Of a stretch of 64,000 nt of DNA, positions 42,551-48,813 are shown one piece after another. The translations under genes and the position numbers were made by a program. The notes beneath the pieces were generated by a model that ran no database searches, was not told where the DNA came from, and saw nothing but the letters and a program-made list of their open reading frames with translations. This stretch comes from Muribaculaceae bacterium (GTDB taxonomy: Bacteria; Bacillota; Clostridia; Lachnospirales; Lachnospiraceae): the NCBI GenBank assembly GCA_023666425.1, contig JAMPCA010000001.1, positions 822,680 to 886,679 on the forward strand, given 5' to 3'. Every line of letters starts with the position of its first letter. Within the stretch, counting starts at the first letter, position 1.

Positions 42551-43114
42551 ATGAACTCTTTAAAACGATTTACCATCATCGGCATTATTTTCGTAATCAT
42601 TGCCGGAACAATTTCACATTTTGTCTATGAATGGACCGGAAACAACGCCTTTGCCGGTCTGTTTTTCCCCGTGGGCGAATCCACCTGGGAGCATATAAAG
42701 CTTTTGTTTTTTCCGATGCTTGTCTACTCTGTGTATATGACAATAAAACTGCGAACCGGTTTCCCCCATATCCTCCCCGCGCTGTCCGGCGGACTGCTGG
42801 CGGGTTCTTTTGCAATTCCGGTGATTTTTTACAGCTACCGGGGGATTCTTGGAAAGGACTATACGGCGCTGGATATCGCCACCTTTGCGGCCAGTGTGTT
42901 CCTCGCCTTTTTTACCGCATACCGTCTGAGCGGATTCCGCTTTTCGCCTGCAGGCAGAAGGCTTCTGGTAATTGCCGTAATTTTCCTCACGGTATGCTTT
43001 TTTGTCTTCACCTGTCATCCTCCAAAGATGGGGATATTCAAAGAGCCTGCCGCATCATCGAGAACGCACATCAGCTTTTCCTCTTCCTCTGTCCCAATAT
43101 ATTTTGAGGGGTAG
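42551..43114 (+). CDS. hypothetical polytopic membrane protein
   Basis: Start set at the ATG at 42551 (MNSLKRF...). The upstream part of the track ORF overlaps the divergent gene. Four to five TM helices. Its 3' end overlaps the convergent gene by about 100 nt. Confidence 0.55.
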   Translation: MNSLKRFTIIGIIFVIIAGTISHFVYEWTGNNAFAGLFFPVGESTWEHIKLLFFPMLVYSVYMTIKLRTGFPHILPALSGGLLAGSFAIPVIFYSYRGILGKDYTALDIATFAASVFLAFFTAYRLSGFRFSPAGRRLLVIAVIFLTVCFFVFTCHPPKMGIFKEPAASSRTHISFSSSSVPIYFEG

Positions 43115-43734
43115 ACCAGACACAATCCCGCCTTATCCCAATATTCCCCGTCTTCCATCTCAAATCCGTAAAAATACATTCTGTCGCCATGATAATCTCT
43201 CTTTGCCCGGAATAAAAATCTCCCCTCCAGCGGCTCGATGCTGACAGCTCCCTCAAACGTCTTCTTTTCCTTGTACTCTTCTACTGCACAGTACACTTCG
43301 TCGTCTGTCACTACCGCAATACAGGGAACCGTTCCCTCCTGTCCATATTCCCGGTCCGGTGCATAAGCAGATAAAAGCTCCACCTCTGCCGCATGGGATT
43401 TTGCCGGTTTAAACGCTTTATTGACAACATATCCGTAACCCGCATATTCATCCGAAATGGTATGCACTTCTTTTGAAAGCTCTATGGTTTCAAAAGCCAG
43501 CGGATGCGGACTATAGATTTCTTCCTTTTCCAGATTTACGGTTTTCTCTAACTTCTCTTTTACCGCCTCCACCTTTTTATTGCGCCGCATGATACATAAC
43601 GCAGAAATCAGATTTACCACGCCTACCGCCAGCCACATAAATCCCACCAATGTTTTGTTCATAACAAAACACAGGCAGGCGGCACAGATCCATATCACGG
43701 CCGTGACCAGGCTTAGATTGCTTCTCTTCATCAT
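43015..43734 (-). CDS. hypothetical membrane-anchored protein (N-terminal TM pair plus soluble domain)
   Basis: 239 aa. Preceded by an extended -10 promoter TGTGGTATAAT at about 43777-43787 and a GGGGGTGA SD. Confidence 0.55.
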   Translation of the reverse strand: MMKRSNLSLVTAVIWICAACLCFVMNKTLVGFMWLAVGVVNLISALCIMRRNKKVEAVKEKLEKTVNLEKEEIYSPHPLAFETIELSKEVHTISDEYAGYGYVVNKAFKPAKSHAAEVELLSAYAPDREYGQEGTVPCIAVVTDDEVYCAVEEYKEKKTFEGAVSIEPLEGRFLFRAKRDYHGDRMYFYGFEMEDGEYWDKAGLCLVYPSKYIGTEEEEKLMCVLDDAAGSLNIPIFGG

Positions 43735-43831: not shown

Positions 43832-44101
43832 ATCAATTTCTGGAATTGCGAATGGCTGCATGTGCGCAAGGTTCCATGCTGTCGGCTCAATAAATGGATT
43901 TTCTAAACCTTCTGTAAGGGATGTCTCTCCTGACGCGACCGCCCGCAATTCGCCGTCGTGGCTCAGTGCGGGCTTTACGGGACGTCCGTGTCCCGCAATC
44001 GCTGATGCCATACAGAACATTAAGAAAATCCAATTTCCCGTCGCAAAGACAGCTTTGGAAACCTTGCGCACATGCAGCCATTCGCAATTCCGGAAATTGA
44101 T
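43832..44101. repeat. 42-bp near-perfect inverted repeats (43832-43873 and 44060-44101) flanking a 186-bp GC-rich spacer
   Basis: IR-L is ATCAATTTCTGGAATTGCGAATGGCTGCATGTGCGCAAGGTT. IR-R is its reverse complement with 1 mismatch. Lies between the phosphoesterase stop (44117) and the promoter of the 239-aa gene. No obvious target-site duplication. Confidence 0.7.
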
Positions 44102-44116
44102 ATCCTTTTACTCCGT

Positions 44117-44932
44117 CTACAGATTCATCGGCCCTGCGAGCACCTCCCGCGTGACATACAACGGCATAGCCTCCCCCGCGGACATGGCCGCTCCCATGGA
44201 CCATCGCACAAGGGTTGCCTGCATATTCGAAATCTCAATGCAGGTGATGCCGGAGGGATGCACGCAGCTTCCGGTATTCATATATCCCTCCCCCGGCTCC
44301 GGAAGCCGCGGTCTGTGGGAATGCCCCGCTACCAGATAGGCGCCTTTCTCAATCGTCCAGTTTTTCAGACACCGCTCATAGCGTTCTACCTTTTTGTAAT
44401 TGCGGGCGGCGCTGGTCGGATCGTTCACCCCGGTGCTCTCCAGCGGTTTCCAGACATAGCGCACCAAAAACCGGGACAGACGCCAGCACACGGAATTAAA
44501 AAAATCCGCCTGATGGCCGTGAAGCATATAGATATTGGATCCGCCCTCCTCATTTTCAAGAATGACGGCAGGCGGCAGCACTGACCGCAGCGCCATGTCA
44601 TGGTTTCCGTATATCTTTACAAACCTTCCCCTCTGCCTGTAGCATTCCAGAAGCCCGTACACTCTCTCGTGATAACGCATGATCCGTTGCAGACAGCGGT
44701 TCTCCCACAGCTCCTCCCCATCTCCCAGCTCAATATAAAAAAAGTTCTTCCGCAGATAATAGGCAAGCGCCGCCAGATACAGATGGTGATTTTTCAAAAA
44801 ATTGTCGTTGCCCGTACCCTCACCCCGGTGACAGTCGCTAAAAAGCACATAGCGGCTTTTTGCATTCAGCGGGAGCCTTACGGCCCCCGCCAGCGCCTGC
44901 TCTATTCTCGCTTTACAGCTCATAGGCGGCAC
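44117..44932 (-). CDS. metallophosphoesterase (calcineurin-like, PPP/LpxH-like)
   Basis: Motifs DCHRG, GDGEE, GNHD, GH, GHSH in canonical order. Confidence 0.75.
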   Translation of the reverse strand: MPPMSCKARIEQALAGAVRLPLNAKSRYVLFSDCHRGEGTGNDNFLKNHHLYLAALAYYLRKNFFYIELGDGEELWENRCLQRIMRYHERVYGLLECYRQRGRFVKIYGNHDMALRSVLPPAVILENEEGGSNIYMLHGHQADFFNSVCWRLSRFLVRYVWKPLESTGVNDPTSAARNYKKVERYERCLKNWTIEKGAYLVAGHSHRPRLPEPGEGYMNTGSCVHPSGITCIEISNMQATLVRWSMGAAMSAGEAMPLYVTREVLAGPMNL

Positions 44933-45951
44933 TTCCTTTTCTTTCTGTTTGCAAAGCGCTTCCTGTCCGCGCCAAACAGCCGCCGCAGACAGCCCGGAAG
45001 CAGCTCATAGAAAAACAGTAATCTATCCACCGTCTCTGTAAATGGACGACCCGCAAAGCAAAACAGGCCTGCCCAGAAACGGTTCCACATCTGCGCCCAG
45101 CTCCGGTATATTTTTCCCTGCAGGATATCTGCACCGGTTTCCATGCGCACATACACGCGGTTTCCACAGTGCTCGTATGCATTTGCCGCACCCTGTAAGC
45201 CTGTGCAAAAGGCCTCTGCCATCGCTGCATCGTCAAAAGCGATTACGGTATAGAGTACAAGCTGTCCGGGCTTTGAAAACCGCCCCATGGAAAAGCCCGT
45301 CAGCCACCAGTGCCTTGCCTCATAAACGTAGATGGTCTTCCCCTCCCGCATGAGCCTGCTCTTGATGAGAGGCAGCTCATCGTCAGTGGCCGCTTCAAAA
45401 TGGGCGTAGGGATATTCATGGGGCATGAGGATTTGGCTGGCATGGTACACGCCCACCTCCGCCCCCGTAAGGATACCGTACTGGCCTTTCCAGAACTCAA
45501 TGAGCCAGGTGCGTCCCCCATAGTCGAAATAGACCGGCCATATATCCATAACCATATGCACTGCAGGAGCGGCCGCGTCAAATAAAGCCTCATAGCCCGC
45601 CTGCCTCTGCCATGCATCGCGTCTGGTGGAAAAAATGTCCCAGTCCTTTACATAAAAAAATCCGAAGGGTTCCGCCAGAGCATTGATTTTCTCCAGCTTC
45701 TCCCACTCCGGCATCTTCTGTACTTTACACACACATTTTTTCCTGTGTCTGTACACCGCAATAGCCAGCAGAACAAGTACGATGATCCCGGCTGCCGGCA
45801 GCACAGCTTTTACTATTTCCAATGGTTCCACAACAAGCCTCCCGACATATGATCCTTTTTCCGGCGCATTCGCGCCTACTACATGATATGTCGAAAAAGC
45901 AGACTTTGTGAATGTGCATAAAATGCCGGAGCATTGAGGACATATTATCAT
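44920..45951 (-). CDS. DUF4474-like hypothetical protein with N-terminal TM anchor
   Basis: 343 aa. One TM (AVLPAAGIIVLVLLAIAVY). Contains an IEFWKGQYG motif that I associate with DUF4474 from memory. C-terminal basic tail. Confidence 0.5.
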   Translation of the reverse strand: MIICPQCSGILCTFTKSAFSTYHVVGANAPEKGSYVGRLVVEPLEIVKAVLPAAGIIVLVLLAIAVYRHRKKCVCKVQKMPEWEKLEKINALAEPFGFFYVKDWDIFSTRRDAWQRQAGYEALFDAAAPAVHMVMDIWPVYFDYGGRTWLIEFWKGQYGILTGAEVGVYHASQILMPHEYPYAHFEAATDDELPLIKSRLMREGKTIYVYEARHWWLTGFSMGRFSKPGQLVLYTVIAFDDAAMAEAFCTGLQGAANAYEHCGNRVYVRMETGADILQGKIYRSWAQMWNRFWAGLFCFAGRPFTETVDRLLFFYELLPGCLRRLFGADRKRFANRKKRKCRL

Positions 45952-45996
45952 TTCATTTTTAAAGGACAGCCTGATATCAGAATCAGACTGTCCTTT

Positions 45997-46220
45997 GCCT
46001 TTCCTTTTGCCGTGACTTTTCCGCCTGCACTCACGGCTGCGACTTTCTCATTGTCTGAAAAGTACCGCAGTCTGGGCCTGTGGGATTTTTTCGTGCCCGG
46101 TGGCTCGATTAGCTTTTTCAGCTTTTTTATGCTTTTCAGCTTTTCAGGCTCGGGCGGGCTTTATAAGTATAGTGTCTCTGTTATACCATGTCCACCCGCG
46201 GACAAGTCAACTGTTTTTGA
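45997..46220. repeat. direct repeat copy A (about 224 bp, about 98% identical to copy B)
   Basis: Aligns with 47006-47231, differing by 4 substitutions and 1 indel. Contains conserved hairpins (CTGCG-ACTTTTTCA..TGAAAAGT-CGCAG) and three iterated CTTTTCAG motifs. Confidence 0.85.
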
Positions 46221-46371
46221 AAATTCTGTCATTTTCCGATTACTATTCAAAGCTTTTCTCCGCAATGCCATAAAAATTTCTTGCCTTTGTGAGGAATCCG
46301 GTATAGAATGATTTTAGCAGGGTTCGTAAAAAACACTTGAAATCTGTAAGAATCAATGCTATTATATATTT

Positions 46372-46470
46372 AAGAAAGCACCCATTCCAAAGTGGATGCT
46401 CCTAAAAAGTGGTGAATGTCCTTACGGACGCCGCCTCTCTCGTGGATCAGACGAGGGAGGCTTATTTTTT
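46372..46470 (+). ncRNA. candidate cis-antisense small RNA (putative type I antitoxin) convergent with the Hol-Tox-like gene
   Basis: Promoter TTGAAA-17 nt-TATTAT at 46337-46365. Plus-strand intrinsic terminator (11-bp stem GCCTCTCTCGT / ACGAGGGAGGC plus TTATTTTTT) at 46433-46470. The terminator overlaps the last codons of the minus-strand peptide gene and would cover its 3' UTR. Confidence 0.35.
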
Positions 46471-46581
46471 ACGCTTGTTCCTCTTATCGAGAAAGGCAAG
46501 CAACGTAATAACAAAGCTGCCAAAGGCAATCAGCAAGGCTAATATACCAATGAAAATCGAAATGATTTCAAAAGCTGTCAT
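46462..46581 (-). CDS. 39-aa single-TM peptide resembling putative holin-like toxins (Hol-Tox family; type I toxin-like)
   Basis: MTAFEIISIFIGILALLIAFGSFVITLLAFLDKRNKRKK. Strong SD AGGAGGTG 6 nt upstream. Hydrophobic helix then a Lys/Arg tail. A CCTCCT segment in the 5' UTR could pair with the SD. Below the 60-aa floor of the ORF track. Confidence 0.55.
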   Translation of the reverse strand: MTAFEIISIFIGILALLIAFGSFVITLLAFLDKRNKRKK

Positions 46582-47005
46582 AACGCCACCTCCTTCCTAT
46601 GTACTCCGGCAAGCCGGGATAAGCTAGGAGGCTACCACCCTGTCATGGATACTTTCCGTAAATATATTATACTATATTTGTGATAATCTGTATATGAAAA
46701 CATGATTAAGAAGAATTGAAATTTTACTATATTCTACCTCTTCCCTCATAGGTTTTGGGAGTACATATTATTCTTGTATATCCGTAAAAGTAATACTCTC
46801 GTAATCCAGCCCGTTAGCCCATGTCTGTAAAGGAGCAGCAGTAAACTTATATACTTTGAAAACCTTTTCGCTGTTTGTTTATATGAAACAGGAGGATGGG
46901 TCATATTGCCCATCCTCCTGTCATGTTCCGTTTACGCTTATTTTACTGTGATCTTAGTCCTGACACTCGCGCCGTTTAAGGCGGTGACATAAATGTAACC
47001 GGTTC

Positions 47006-47231
47006 CCTTTCCTTTTGCCGTGACTTTTCCGCCTGCACTCACGGCTGCGACTTTTTCATTGTCTGAAAAGTACCGCAGTCTGGGCCCGTGGGATTTTTTC
47101 GTGCCCGGTGGCTCGATTGGCTTTTTCAGCTTTTTTATGCTTTTCAGCTTTTCAGGCTCGGGCGGGCTTTATAAGTACAGTGTCTCTGTTATACCATGTC
47201 CACCCGCGGACAAGTCAACTGTTTTTTGAAA
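47006..47231. repeat. direct repeat copy B
   Basis: See copy A. The pair brackets a 785-bp AT-rich segment carrying the Hol-Tox-like gene. Confidence 0.85.
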
Positions 47232-47262: not shown

Positions 47263-47472
47263 TCACCTTTCCCTCCACTCCTCTGCCAGATCCTCTGCAA
47301 TATAATCTTCATCCATACAATGCAAATCAGACACGCCTTCTCTGATCAGCTGATATTCCACAGAATGGTAAAAGAAATCTAATGCCTGTCTTGTGTTAAT
47401 TCCAACTTTTTGGGCAAAAAGCGGGATAATTCTTGCATATTTCATATGAAGCAAGGTTTTATTTGCCCTCAT
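47263..47472 (-). CDS. DUF3791-like small protein
   Basis: 69 aa. Lies directly downstream of a DUF3990-like fragment, the usual DUF3990-DUF3791 gene pairing in Clostridia. Family assignment is from memory of sequence style. Confidence 0.5.
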   Translation of the reverse strand: MRANKTLLHMKYARIIPLFAQKVGINTRQALDFFYHSVEYQLIREGVSDLHCMDEDYIAEDLAEEWRER

Positions 47473-47556
47473 ATCGCATAACTCCTTTCAAAATGCAGAT
47501 ATTCTTTTATAATCTGATTCGTCCTTAAGCAAATCTGGAAATTAGGTTTCATAACT

Positions 47557-47727
47557 CTACACATTCCTCGGAACAGGAATCCCTCTGTGTATGTATTGCT
47601 TACACCATCTCACTGCCTGTTCCTCTAATGGTGTCACATAAAATCCAACGCCAAAATCCAGCCGCTGTCTGGAATGTGATATATCCGGGAGAGATACTTC
47701 CATATAGGAGCCATGATAAACCTTCAC
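47557..47727 (-). pseudogene. truncated DUF3990-like gene (N-terminal 56 codons only)
   Basis: Minus-strand frame encodes (GTG)KVYHGSYMEVSLPDISHSRQRLDFGVGFYVTPLEEQAVRWCKQYIHRGIPVPRNV then stops. This matches the N-terminal YHGS / DFGxGFY signature of DUF3990 proteins, which are normally about 160 aa. The track 85-aa ORF at 47600-47857 is in a different frame. Confidence 0.45.
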
Positions 47728-47853: not shown

Positions 47854-48786
47854 TCACGGAATCCTCTTATTTTCAGCCATATACAAATCGTACCACTGCT
47901 GCCGCGTCAGGCAGACCTTAAGCGCCTCACAGCTCTCCCTTAAATGCACCGGAGAGGTGGTGCCTATGACCGCCTGCATATTTGCCGGATGGCGCAGGAT
48001 CCATGCAAGTGCAATCGCGCTCTTTGTCACCCTGTATTCGGCGGCAAGGCTCTCAAGAAGCGCATTTAGTCTGGCATACTTTGGATTGTCGATAAAGCTG
48101 CCATCCGCCCATGAGGCCTGCAGGGGACACCACGTCTGAACCGTAATATCGTGCAGACGGCAATAATCCAGCATTCCGTGATCTCTGTCAGCCGCGTGAT
48201 CGTCTGCCATATTTACAAAGAAATCGCTGTCCAGCATATGGCTGTGAATGATGGAAAACTGCAGCTGGTTACAGATGAGAGGCTGTTTCAGGTACTTATT
48301 CAGAAGACGCAGCTTTCCAACACTGTGATTGGACACGCCAAAATAACGAACCAGCTTCTTCTCATGTAGCTCGTCAAAGGTCTCCGACAGTTCAACGGGA
48401 TCGCACAGGGCATCCGGCCGATGCAACAGAAGAATATCCAGATGGCTGGTATGAAGCCTTTCCAGAGAATGCTGCACCTGATTCATAATGTACTCCCTGG
48501 AGGTATCATAGCGCAGCCCTCCCGCATACTCCTGCACAATGTCGCACTTGGACTGGATCAGCATCTGCTCACGAAGCTCCGGGTTTTTGGCAAGCACTTT
48601 GCCGAAAATCCTCTCGCATTCGCCTTTCCCGTAAATATCCGCATGGTCAAAGAAGTTGATTCCCTGCGCAAGAGCCTCGCGAATAAGTATCTCCACCTCT
48701 TCCTCATTTTTCTCCGCGATGCGCATCATGCCAAGCGCCAGCCGGGAAACTTTTAAGTCTGTGTTTGCAATCTGAATGTAATCCAT
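47854..48786 (-). CDS. aldo/keto reductase
   Basis: AKR motifs (LGMMRI, FFDHADIYG, IGVSNH). Start set at the ATG at 48786, which has a GGAGGAG SD. Confidence 0.85.
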   Translation of the reverse strand: MDYIQIANTDLKVSRLALGMMRIAEKNEEEVEILIREALAQGINFFDHADIYGKGECERIFGKVLAKNPELREQMLIQSKCDIVQEYAGGLRYDTSREYIMNQVQHSLERLHTSHLDILLLHRPDALCDPVELSETFDELHEKKLVRYFGVSNHSVGKLRLLNKYLKQPLICNQLQFSIIHSHMLDSDFFVNMADDHAADRDHGMLDYCRLHDITVQTWCPLQASWADGSFIDNPKYARLNALLESLAAEYRVTKSAIALAWILRHPANMQAVIGTTSPVHLRESCEALKVCLTRQQWYDLYMAENKRIP

Positions 48787-48813
48787 ACTCTCCTCCAATT
48801 TCATTATTATTTT

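What the first reader, a model, noticed from the sequence alone, without database searches (positions are those of the whole stretch)
45997..47231. Two about 225-bp direct repeats (about 98% identical) bracketing a 785-bp AT-rich insert
Copies at 45997-46220 and 47006-47231 differ by only 4 substitutions and 1 indel, which suggests recent duplication. Each copy holds a conserved extended hairpin (CTGCG-ACTTTTTCA-ttgtc-TGAAAAGT-ac-CGCAG), and the base change in copy A weakens that hairpin. Each copy also has three iterated CTTTTCAG motifs, a GC clamp (GCCCGGTGGCTCG ... GGCTCGGGCGGGC), and on the minus strand a TTGACT ... TGGTATAAC promoter-like element. They could be duplicated sRNA genes or regulatory regions, attL/attR-like scars of an integrated element, or substrates for recombination that would delete or amplify the toxin cassette between them. 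Long direct repeats flanking a toxin gene are the sort of structure that causes population heterogeneity.
Basis: seen in the sequence. Interest (0 to 1): 0.55.

Follow-up and report, generated by a model that had tools for sequence, protein, structure and literature searches.

The report
Duplicated gene remnant flanking a toxin cassette
The two 225-base repeats are real, but they are two copies of a dead fragment of a surface-protein gene (a Big_2 Ig-like domain) sitting either side of a small toxin-antitoxin cassette in a decayed, rearranged stretch, so this is most likely an ordinary recent duplication and not a new RNA gene or mobile-element scar.

Summary
Copy R_A (45998-46222) and copy R_B (47006-47231) differ by 4 transitions and 1 homopolymer indel, lie 1008 nt apart, and are the only copies in the window.

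Read on the minus strand, the strand of all neighbouring genes, R_B plus the next 65 nt translates to a C-terminal Big_2 Ig-like domain. It scores 27 bits against Pfam PF02368 (cutoff 22.8) and gives 7075 HMMER hits among 1.84 billion proteins. The frame ends in a stop codon followed by a hairpin. It has an in-frame TAA and no usable start, so it is a pseudogene 3' fragment. R_A is the same fragment cut off mid-domain and fused to unrelated sequence.

The insert carries a TxpA/Hol_Tox-type type I toxin-antitoxin module (46326-46712). That module recurs at 90% identity in unrelated contexts without R. The closest relative (90% nt identity) lacks R and the cassette entirely.

R has no Rfam match and no significant fold, and it gave no hit in the genome, metagenome, viral, phage or plasmid collections.

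Best reading: a recent, lineage-private segmental duplication in a gene-decay islet. The repeats could still drive deletion or amplification of the cassette, but that is untested. Interest is low.

The parts
47006..47231 (-). Repeat copy R_B (226 nt). On the minus strand it is open in one frame apart from a TAA at 47171-47169. From about 47155 onward it encodes the N-terminal two thirds of a Big_2 domain (…EKLKSIKKLKKPIEPPGTKKSHGPRLRYFSDNEKVAAVSAGGKVTAKGKG).
46938..47005 (-). Native continuation of R_B. It holds the last 21 codons of the Big_2 domain (TGYIYVTALNGASVRTKITVK) and a TAA stop at 46940-46938. It lies outside the repeat.
   Evidence: (profile positions 36-75 of 79)
46888..46921 (-). 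13-bp GC-rich hairpin (ACAGGAGGATGGG…CCCATCCTCCTGT) directly after the Big_2 stop. It is terminator-like with a weak U-tract, and the terminator scan did not call it.
   Evidence: (fold)
46326..46712 (-). Type I toxin-antitoxin module, conserved as a unit at about 90% identity in unrelated loci L012 and L013.
46462..46581 (-). Toxin CDS, 39 aa, MTAFEIISIFIGILALLIAFGSFVITLLAFLDKRNKRKK. It matches Pfam Hol_Tox PF16935 at 34.2 bits (cutoff 23.3). A promoter-like site lies at 46694-46666, and GGAGG lies upstream of the ATG.
46337..46470 (+). Predicted antitoxin RNA gene. It has the promoter TTGAAA-17(TG)-TATTAT at 46337-46365 and an intrinsic terminator at 46433-46461 plus a T-run. It is convergent with the toxin mRNA and overlaps that mRNA's 3' end.
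   Evidence: z -3.97; conserved in L012
45998..46222 (-). Repeat copy R_A (225 nt). It is the same Big_2 remnant, but it is cut off after …KVTAKGK and continues into non-homologous sequence.
45961..45996 (.). 36-nt near-perfect hairpin (AAAGGACAGcCTGAT…ATCAGaCTGTCCTTT) lying exactly between R_A and the HTH-gene remnant. CCTTT microhomology is present at the junction.
45932..45960 (-). 29-nt remnant of the zinc-ribbon 3' end of an HTH gene that is intact in the closest relative (L003 5390-5764). The window lacks about 190 nt here relative to L003.
44920..45912 (-). DUF4474 gene. Its real start is the GTG at 45831 (303 aa), and its own promoter-like site is at 45912-45883. Synteny with relative L003 starts here, at window 45923.
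47263..47727 (-). DUF3791 gene (47263-47472) and an N-terminal fragment of a DUF3990 gene (47557-47727, profile positions 1-45 of 152). This is further decayed material upstream of R_B.

Best explanation
R is not a gene or a regulatory element in its own right. It is a 225-nt piece of the 3' end of a dead gene for a surface or structural protein that carried a C-terminal Big_2 Ig-like domain. R_B sits in its native 3' context, followed by the rest of the domain, a stop codon and a hairpin. R_A is a secondary copy made recently in this lineage by a segmental duplication. The likely route is either a tandem duplication of the 1008-nt unit [R + insert] followed by a deletion that removed all but the first 225 nt of the second unit, or a single replication template-switch. 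The whole 1.9-kb stretch between the aldo-keto reductase gene and the DUF4474 promoter is a gene-decay and rearrangement islet. It also holds a truncated DUF3990 gene, a 29-nt HTH-gene remnant, and a self-contained TxpA/Hol_Tox-type type I toxin-antitoxin module that moves independently of R. Shown here: the repeat itself, the Big_2 homology, the lack of an intact ORF, the independent conservation of the toxin-antitoxin module, the absence of R from the nearest relative, and the truncation of R_A. Inferred: the duplication mechanism, and that R has no function. A passive consequence is that two 225-bp direct repeats 1 kb apart can undergo homologous recombination that loops out or amplifies the cassette.
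For: The Big_2 assignment rests on three results. Pfam PF02368 scores 26-27 bits against a cutoff of 22.8, E 4e-6, profile positions 36-75 of 79. phmmer against 1.84e9 representatives gives 7075 hits at E<=1e-3, all multi-Big_2 proteins, with best stretches at query residues about 29-76 and some at 5-76. BLASTP to P0252 gives 45% identity over 69 aa, starting at the residues encoded by the iterated CTGAAAAG motif. PHROGs gives 'structural protein with Ig domain' at E 8e-6.

Pseudogene status: there is an in-frame TAA in both copies. No ATG, GTG or TTG occurs in frame before a GTG lacking a ribosome-binding site (RBS) at 47042. The source annotation calls no gene there.

R_A diverges from the Big_2 frame right at the repeat boundary.

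The toxin-antitoxin module 46326-46712 is 90% identical to L012 and L013 in unrelated neighbourhoods, and homology stops about 100 and 290 nt short of the repeats.

The closest relative, L003, is 90% identical over 3.9 kb downstream, but homology ends at window 45923 plus a 29-nt patch, and R is absent.

There is no Rfam match in R. R alone folds at z -1.47 on the minus strand and -2.45 on the plus strand.

R patterns were absent from genome contigs, metagenome contigs, viral contigs, and phages and plasmids.
Against: No close parent gene was found. One search found no protein sharing even three 5-mers with the fragment, and one search found only Big_2 hits at 42-57% identity, so the origin of the fragment is unproven.

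The first 75 nt or so of R (47231-47157) are not recognised as Big_2. They carry an extended -10-like TGGTATAAC, so transcription of R cannot be excluded.

Openness of the reading frame is not significant on its own: 40% of shuffles have a frame with at most 1 stop.

With only two copies at 98% identity, no conservation or covariation test of function is possible.

The rest of the source genome could not be searched for further copies.

The duplication mechanism is inferred from junction anatomy only.
Confidence: 0.7

Rival explanations
1. R is a duplicated sRNA gene or cis-regulatory leader transcribed on the minus strand from its extended -10-like element. R_B would end at the 46921-46888 hairpin. 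R_A would end at the 45996-45961 hairpin or read through into DUF4474.
For: TGGTATAAC (an extended -10) is present in both copies, and TGGACA-17-TATACT was called in copy A. Each copy is followed on the minus strand by a strong hairpin. The internal 34-nt hairpin folds better than shuffles, z -2.4 to -3.5.
Against: There is no Rfam match at E<=10. R alone folds no better than shuffles on the minus strand, z -1.47. R is absent upstream of DUF4474 in all relatives examined (L003-L006). DUF4474 has its own conserved promoter downstream of R_A. The motifs are accounted for by Big_2 codons. The TTGACT spacer is 19 nt. No homologue was found in any collection.
Confidence: 0.1
2. R_A and R_B are attL/attR-type junctions, or the product of Campbell-type integration of a small circle [R + toxin-antitoxin cassette] by homologous recombination into a resident R. 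The unit would then be an excisable or amplifiable cassette.
For: The R-X-R topology is exactly what single-crossover integration of a circle carrying R would produce. The insert is compositionally distinct, at 39% GC. The toxin-antitoxin module is found at unrelated loci in other genomes, so it does relocate.
Against: There is no integrase or recombinase in or next to the insert. In other genomes the conserved module is only 46326-46712 and lacks R at its ends. The insert contains the native 3' continuation of the R_B Big_2 frame with its stop and hairpin, so that part of the insert is resident sequence and not cargo. R was absent from the phage, plasmid and viral collections.
Confidence: 0.12
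3. The duplication is an assembly artefact, for example a strain bubble linearised in a metagenome assembly, and real genomes carry one R.
For: The closest relative's record is labelled a MAG, and its accession falls in the same series as the source genome's, so the source may also be a MAG. One difference between the copies is a homopolymer-length change typical of long-read error.
Against: The copies differ by 4 substitutions and have different unique flanks on both sides. The contig is 1.33 Mb, which implies reads or graph paths spanning a 1-kb structure. An X-to-R_A junction must exist in reads for the assembler to produce it.
Confidence: 0.06

Closest known systems
Gene remnants and segmental duplications in bacterial intergenic 'junkyard' regions (pseudogene fragments duplicated by illegitimate recombination or template switching)
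   Same: R has recognisable domain homology (Big_2) but no intact ORF. It sits among other truncated genes (DUF3990, an HTH gene). It is lineage-private, the two copies are nearly identical, and one copy is truncated at a junction with short microhomology (CCTTT).
   Different: The parent gene was not found anywhere, so the direction and age of decay cannot be reconstructed. The duplication happens to bracket a toxin-antitoxin module.
E. coli LDR (ldr/rdl) and SIB/QUAD (ibs/sib) long direct repeats of type I toxin-antitoxin loci (Kawano 2002; Fozo 2008, 2010, as cited in PMC2887945)
   Same: Both are long direct repeats in one intergenic region associated with a type I toxin and an antisense RNA.
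   Different: In LDR and SIB each repeat unit itself contains the toxin ORF and the antisense RNA. Here there is one toxin-antitoxin module between the repeats, and the repeats contain neither a toxin ORF nor the antitoxin.
TxpA/RatA-type ('holin-like toxin', Pfam PF16935) type I toxin-antitoxin systems of Firmicutes
   Same: This comparison applies to the insert, not to R. The insert encodes a 39-aa toxin with one hydrophobic helix and a Lys/Arg-rich C-terminus. A convergent antisense promoter and terminator overlap the toxin's 3' end, the arrangement described for txpA/ratA. PMC2887945 notes that TxpA-family members are annotated as holin-like toxins.
   Different: Toxicity and the antisense RNA are predicted, not shown. 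This is a Lachnospiraceae (Blautia-like) representative.
attL/attR direct repeats of integrated elements
   Same: Direct repeats bracket a compositionally distinct insert.
   Different: There is no recombinase. The repeat is 225 nt of pseudogene sequence. The insert includes resident gene-tail sequence. The same cassette elsewhere lacks these ends.

Membership tests
Big_2 domain (Pfam PF02368) coding sequence | The translated sequence scores above the Pfam gathering threshold | tested here: met
   26.3-27.3 bits against a cutoff of 22.8, profile positions 36-75 of 79. There are 7075 phmmer hits at E<=1e-3, all to multi-Big_2 proteins. BLASTP gives 45% identity over 69 aa to P0252.
Big_2 domain (Pfam PF02368) coding sequence | Part of an intact, translatable ORF | tested here: not met
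   An in-frame TAA lies at 47171-47169 and at the equivalent site in copy A. No in-frame start with an RBS exists. R_A leaves the frame's homology at the repeat boundary. Hence R is a pseudogene fragment.
Known RNA family (Rfam 15) | Covariance-model match on either strand of R | tested here: not met
   No hit lies within 45998-46222 or 47006-47231, even at E<=10.
Structured sRNA or riboswitch-like element (generic) | Fold more stable than shuffled controls, and conservation or covariation across species | tested here: not met
   z is -1.47 on the minus strand and -2.45 on the plus strand for R alone. No homologues were found, so covariation cannot be assessed.
LDR/SIB-type type I toxin-antitoxin repeats | Each repeat unit carries a toxin ORF and its antisense RNA | tested here: not met
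   R has no small hydrophobic ORF with an RBS. The single toxin and antisense promoter lie in the unique insert.
TxpA/Hol_Tox type I toxin-antitoxin (the insert only) | Small hydrophobic toxin matching PF16935 | tested here: met
   34.2 bits against a cutoff of 23.3. There are 158 homologues at E<=0.01, most of them carrying PF16935.
TxpA/Hol_Tox type I toxin-antitoxin (the insert only) | Convergent antisense RNA overlapping the toxin mRNA 3' end | tested here: inconclusive
   A consensus promoter at 46337-46365 (+) and a terminator at 46433-46461 (+) are predicted and are conserved in L012. There is no transcript evidence.
TxpA/Hol_Tox type I toxin-antitoxin (the insert only) | Toxicity on overexpression and neutralisation by the RNA | not testable with these tools
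   This needs an experiment.
attL/attR of an integrated mobile element | A recombinase is associated, and the same element with the same ends occurs elsewhere | tested here: not met
   No recombinase ORF lies in 46223-47005 or adjacent to it. The toxin-antitoxin module in L012 and L013 lacks R. There are no phage, plasmid or viral matches.
REP / MITE / IS fragment | Multi-copy in the genome, with terminal inverted repeats or a REP palindrome | tested here: inconclusive
   Only 2 copies occur in 64 kb, and no terminal inverted repeats were found. Exact R patterns gave 0 hits in the public collections searched. The rest of the source genome could not be searched.

The most novel reading that the evidence does not exclude
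The R-TA-R arrangement may be a functional unit. RecA-mediated recombination between the two 225-bp repeats would loop out or amplify the 1008-nt unit and so create population heterogeneity in toxin-antitoxin dosage. Post-segregational killing by the type I toxin would counter-select the loop-out and so stabilise the duplication. R might also be transcribed from its extended -10 element as a pseudogene-derived RNA.
Probability: 0.1. Interest if true: 0.4.

Novelty: new member of a known kind. Interest (0 to 1): 0.15.

Why it matters
It matters little beyond correct annotation. The analysis shows that a repeat looking rich in motifs (hairpin, iterated octamers, GC clamp, promoter-like boxes) is explained by a decayed Ig-like-domain coding sequence. 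That is a useful caution for sRNA and regulatory-motif calls made from sequence alone. The locus does give a clean example of a TxpA/Hol_Tox type I toxin-antitoxin module that relocates as a unit of about 390 nt among Lachnospiraceae genomes. It also gives a natural direct-repeat substrate that could be used to measure deletion or amplification of such a cassette, if strains or long reads become available.

Tried and rejected
Rfam gave nothing in R, either at gathering thresholds over the window or at E<=10 over the locus. The weak rli28, mir-3136 and DUF2815 hits lie outside R and are below threshold.

R as a conserved leader of DUF4474 is rejected. The upstream regions of the four closest DUF4474 loci (L003-L006) have no R.

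Exact look-ups of the DUF4474, toxin and DUF3791 proteins returned only the source assembly, so no sister strains are available.

Exact R patterns gave 0 hits in genome contigs, metagenome contigs and viral contigs. blastn against phages and plasmids gave 0.

The search for the parent gene failed. No word-sharing protein was found. Only distant Big_2 loci were found in genomes, and none in viral contigs.

Plus-strand ORFs across R (125 aa and 69 aa) and minus-strand ORFs overlapping R's upstream edge have no Pfam support.

I considered reading-frame openness as evidence for coding, but it is not significant by shuffling.

I noted junction microhomologies (CCTTT at the R_A 3' junction, AATTT-like at the 5' junction), but they are too short to prove a mechanism.

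Full report
**Observation**

The region contains one two-copy direct repeat. Read strictly, R_A is 45998-46222 and R_B is 47006-47231. The copies differ by four substitutions, all transitions, and one T5/T6 indel. They lie 1008 nt apart, start to start, around a 783-nt insert.

The aligner adds three more bases at the left end (TTG vs TTC), which gives 229 nt at 97.4%. A sensitive blastn of R against the whole 64-kb window finds no third copy. The insert is AT-rich, at 39% GC against 52% for the window.

Two qualifications apply:
- The copy-A substitution hardly changes hairpin stability: -9.0 vs -9.5 kcal/mol on the plus strand and -10.3 vs -10.2 on the minus strand.
- The TTGACT/TATAAC pair has a 19-nt spacer, so the promoter scan did not call it. 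The scan called only TGGACA-17-TATACT, and only in copy A. TGGTATAAC does look like an extended -10 element.

**Context**

Every gene around the repeat is on the minus strand. In transcription order the locus reads:
- aldo-keto reductase, 47854-48804
- an N-terminal fragment of a DUF3990 gene, 47557-47727, matching profile positions 1-45 of 152
- DUF3791, 47263-47472
- R_B
- a hairpin, 46921-46888
- a Hol_Tox toxin gene, 46581-46462
- R_A
- a 36-nt hairpin, 45996-45961
- DUF4474, whose true start is the GTG at 45831, 303 aa

The source is assembly GCA_023664875.1, contig JAMPES010000001.1. The nearest DUF4474 homologue is annotated as Blautia sp..

**What R is**

Translating the minus strand shows that the whole of R_B lies in one frame with a single TAA at 47171-47169. 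That frame continues 65 nt beyond the repeat to a TAA at 46940-46938, just before the hairpin.

The 76 codons after the internal stop read SPPEPEKLKSIKKLKKPIEPPGTKKSHGPRLRYFSDNEKVAAVSAGGKVTAKGKGTGYIYVTALNGASVRTKITVK. The evidence that this is a Big_2 domain is:
- Pfam Big_2 (PF02368) scores 27 bits against a gathering cutoff of 22.8, over profile positions 36-75 of 79.
- A full HMMER scan of 1.84 billion representative proteins returns 7075 hits at E<=1e-3. All are large multi-Big_2 proteins at about 35-50% identity.
- BLASTP against one of them (P0252) aligns 69 residues at 45% identity, starting at LKSIKKLKK.
- PHROGs returns "structural protein with Ig domain".

The "three iterated CTTTTCAG motifs" are the codons for EKLKSIKKLKK, and the "extended hairpin" is LRYFSDNEKVAA.

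The frame has no usable start. The first in-frame ATG, GTG or TTG is a GTG at 47042 with no ribosome-binding site (RBS). Both copies share the internal stop, and the source annotation calls no gene there. R_B plus its tail is therefore the 3'-terminal remnant of a dead Big_2-domain gene.

R_A is the same remnant, but at the repeat boundary it leaves the Big_2 frame (…KVTAKGK|AKDSLILISG…) and runs into an unrelated 36-nt hairpin. R_B is thus in native 3' context, and R_A is the derived copy.

Frame openness alone is not significant: 40% of shuffles have a frame with at most one stop. The coding-remnant call rests on the profile hits.

**What the insert is**

The toxin is 39 aa with one hydrophobic helix and a KRNKRKK tail. 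It matches Pfam Hol_Tox at 34.2 bits against a cutoff of 23.3. According to PMC2887945, TxpA-family members are the proteins annotated as "holin-like toxins".

A strong plus-strand promoter (46337-46365, TG-extended) and an intrinsic terminator (46433-46461) predict an antisense RNA of about 100 nt. It would be convergent with the toxin mRNA and overlap its 3' end.

Homologous toxins at 92-95% identity lie in unrelated neighbourhoods in two metagenomic contigs: after a Wzy_C gene in L012, and next to a LacI regulator in L013. DNA homology at about 90% covers window 46326-46712 in L012 and 46457-46725 in L013, whose contig ends at the toxin's 3' end. The toxin promoter is conserved in both, and the antisense promoter in L012. 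In L012, homology stops about 100 nt short of R_A and about 290 nt short of R_B.

The toxin-antitoxin module is therefore an independent unit of about 390 nt, and R is not part of it.

**Comparative evidence on the locus**

The closest relative available is L003 (GCA_023663685.1). It is 90% identical over 3.9 kb from the DUF4474 promoter downstream, but homology ends at window 45923. Upstream of that point L003 carries a methylase, a nucleotidyltransferase and an HTH/zinc-ribbon gene.

A 29-nt patch (window 45960-45932) is 97% identical to the 3' end of that HTH gene, and the window lacks about 190 nt relative to L003. The window locus is therefore a deletion and rearrangement derivative, and R with the cassette is absent from the relative. 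More distant DUF4474 loci (L004-L006) also lack R.

**Searches for R elsewhere**

Every search for R or its parent gene came back empty or distant:
- Exact look-ups of three proteins from the locus return only the source assembly.
- Exact 21-25-nt patterns from different parts of R give no hit in species-representative genomes, JGI metagenomes or IMG/VR.
- blastn of the whole locus against phage and plasmid collections gives nothing.
- The parent gene was not found. No protein in the 5.8-billion-cluster database shares even three 5-mers with the fragment.
- Back-translated scans find only Big_2 loci at 42-57% identity.

The genome scan did not return the window itself, so the source genome is evidently not in that collection. 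Genome-wide copy number of R remains untested.

**RNA hypotheses**

Rfam gives nothing in R on either strand, even at E<=10. R alone folds no better than shuffles on the minus strand (z -1.47; 15 of 200 shuffles fold as well) and only marginally better on the plus strand (z -2.45).

The strongly negative z-scores seen when flanks are included come from the two non-repeated hairpins. The 34-nt internal hairpin is real but modest, at about -10 kcal/mol.

With two copies at 98% identity there is no covariation information. Of the four substitutions, two are synonymous and two non-synonymous in the Big_2 frame, which is uninformative.

**Mechanism**

The shared 5' boundary of the two copies argues for one duplication event and against two independent deletions. 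The simplest histories consistent with the anatomy are:
- (a) A tandem duplication of the 1008-nt unit [R + insert], followed by a deletion running from 225 nt into the second unit to the hairpin and HTH-remnant region.
- (b) A single replication template-switch that re-copied R.
- (c) Homologous integration of a small [R + X] circle.

Short microhomologies occur at the junctions (CCTTT at the hairpin/R_A boundary) and fit (a) or (b), but they are too short to be decisive. The copies diverge by 1.8%, against about 10% from L003, so the event postdates the split from that relative.

This step is inference. So is the conclusion that R has no function. A passive consequence, based on general knowledge of RecA-dependent recombination, is that 225-bp direct repeats 1 kb apart can delete or amplify the cassette. 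No data here show that this happens.

**Comparison with known systems**

The insert is a new member of the TxpA/Hol_Tox type I toxin-antitoxin family. The toxin criterion is met, the antisense RNA is predicted only, and toxicity cannot be tested with these tools.

The repeats do not qualify as any of the known repeat types considered:
- They are not LDR/SIB-type toxin-antitoxin repeats, because those units each contain the toxin and antisense genes (PMC2887945), and R contains neither.
- They are not att sites, because there is no recombinase, the cassette elsewhere lacks these ends, and the insert includes the resident gene tail.
- Within the data available, they do not behave as REP, MITE or IS elements.

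**Verdict**

The "recent duplication" and "flanks a toxin" parts of the interpretation hold. The sRNA, regulatory and attL/attR readings are not supported.

The feature is an ordinary, lineage-private duplication of a pseudogene fragment in a decaying islet. Interest is low, at 0.15. The residual novel reading, a recombination-switchable toxin-antitoxin cassette stabilised by the toxin, has about 10% probability.

Noticed in passing
window 43882-44046 (-): There is a full-length TwoAYGGAY RNA (Rfam RF01731, 102 bits against a gathering score of 43) between a metallophosphoesterase-like gene (44117-44932) and a 239-aa ORF (43015-43734). The source annotation places a 77-aa 'gene' on it (L001 7821-8054), which is probably spurious. 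In the relative L003 the region also matches in inverted orientation at 70% identity.
   Followed up: partly
window 46326-46712; L012 4869-5262; L013 4925-5191: A self-contained TxpA/Hol_Tox type I toxin-antitoxin module of about 390 nt is conserved at about 90% DNA identity in three unrelated genomic contexts. It includes the toxin promoter, a highly conserved 5' UTR and the convergent antisense promoter. This suggests the module relocates as a unit among Lachnospiraceae.
   Followed up: partly
window 47557-47727 (-) and 47263-47472 (-): A DUF3990 gene is truncated to its first 45 or so profile positions (of 152), next to an apparently intact DUF3791 gene. This looks like a decayed two-gene pair just upstream of R_B.
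   Followed up: no
window 45932-45960 (-); L003 5684-5712: A 29-nt remnant (97% identical) of the zinc-ribbon C-terminus of an HTH regulator gene that is intact in the closest relative. It creates a spurious upstream extension (MIICPQC…) of the DUF4474 ORF. The real DUF4474 start is the GTG at 45831.
   Followed up: yes
window 45961-45996: A 36-nt near-perfect palindrome with 15-bp arms sits exactly between the HTH remnant and R_A. Its origin is unknown. It gives a weak Rfam 'DUF2815 RNA' hit (E 6) that is not credible.
   Followed up: partly
window 46746-46913 (-): A 55-aa ORF between the Big_2 terminator hairpin and the toxin promoter has no Pfam match. The region 46713-46880 has no homologue in any locus fetched.
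   Followed up: no
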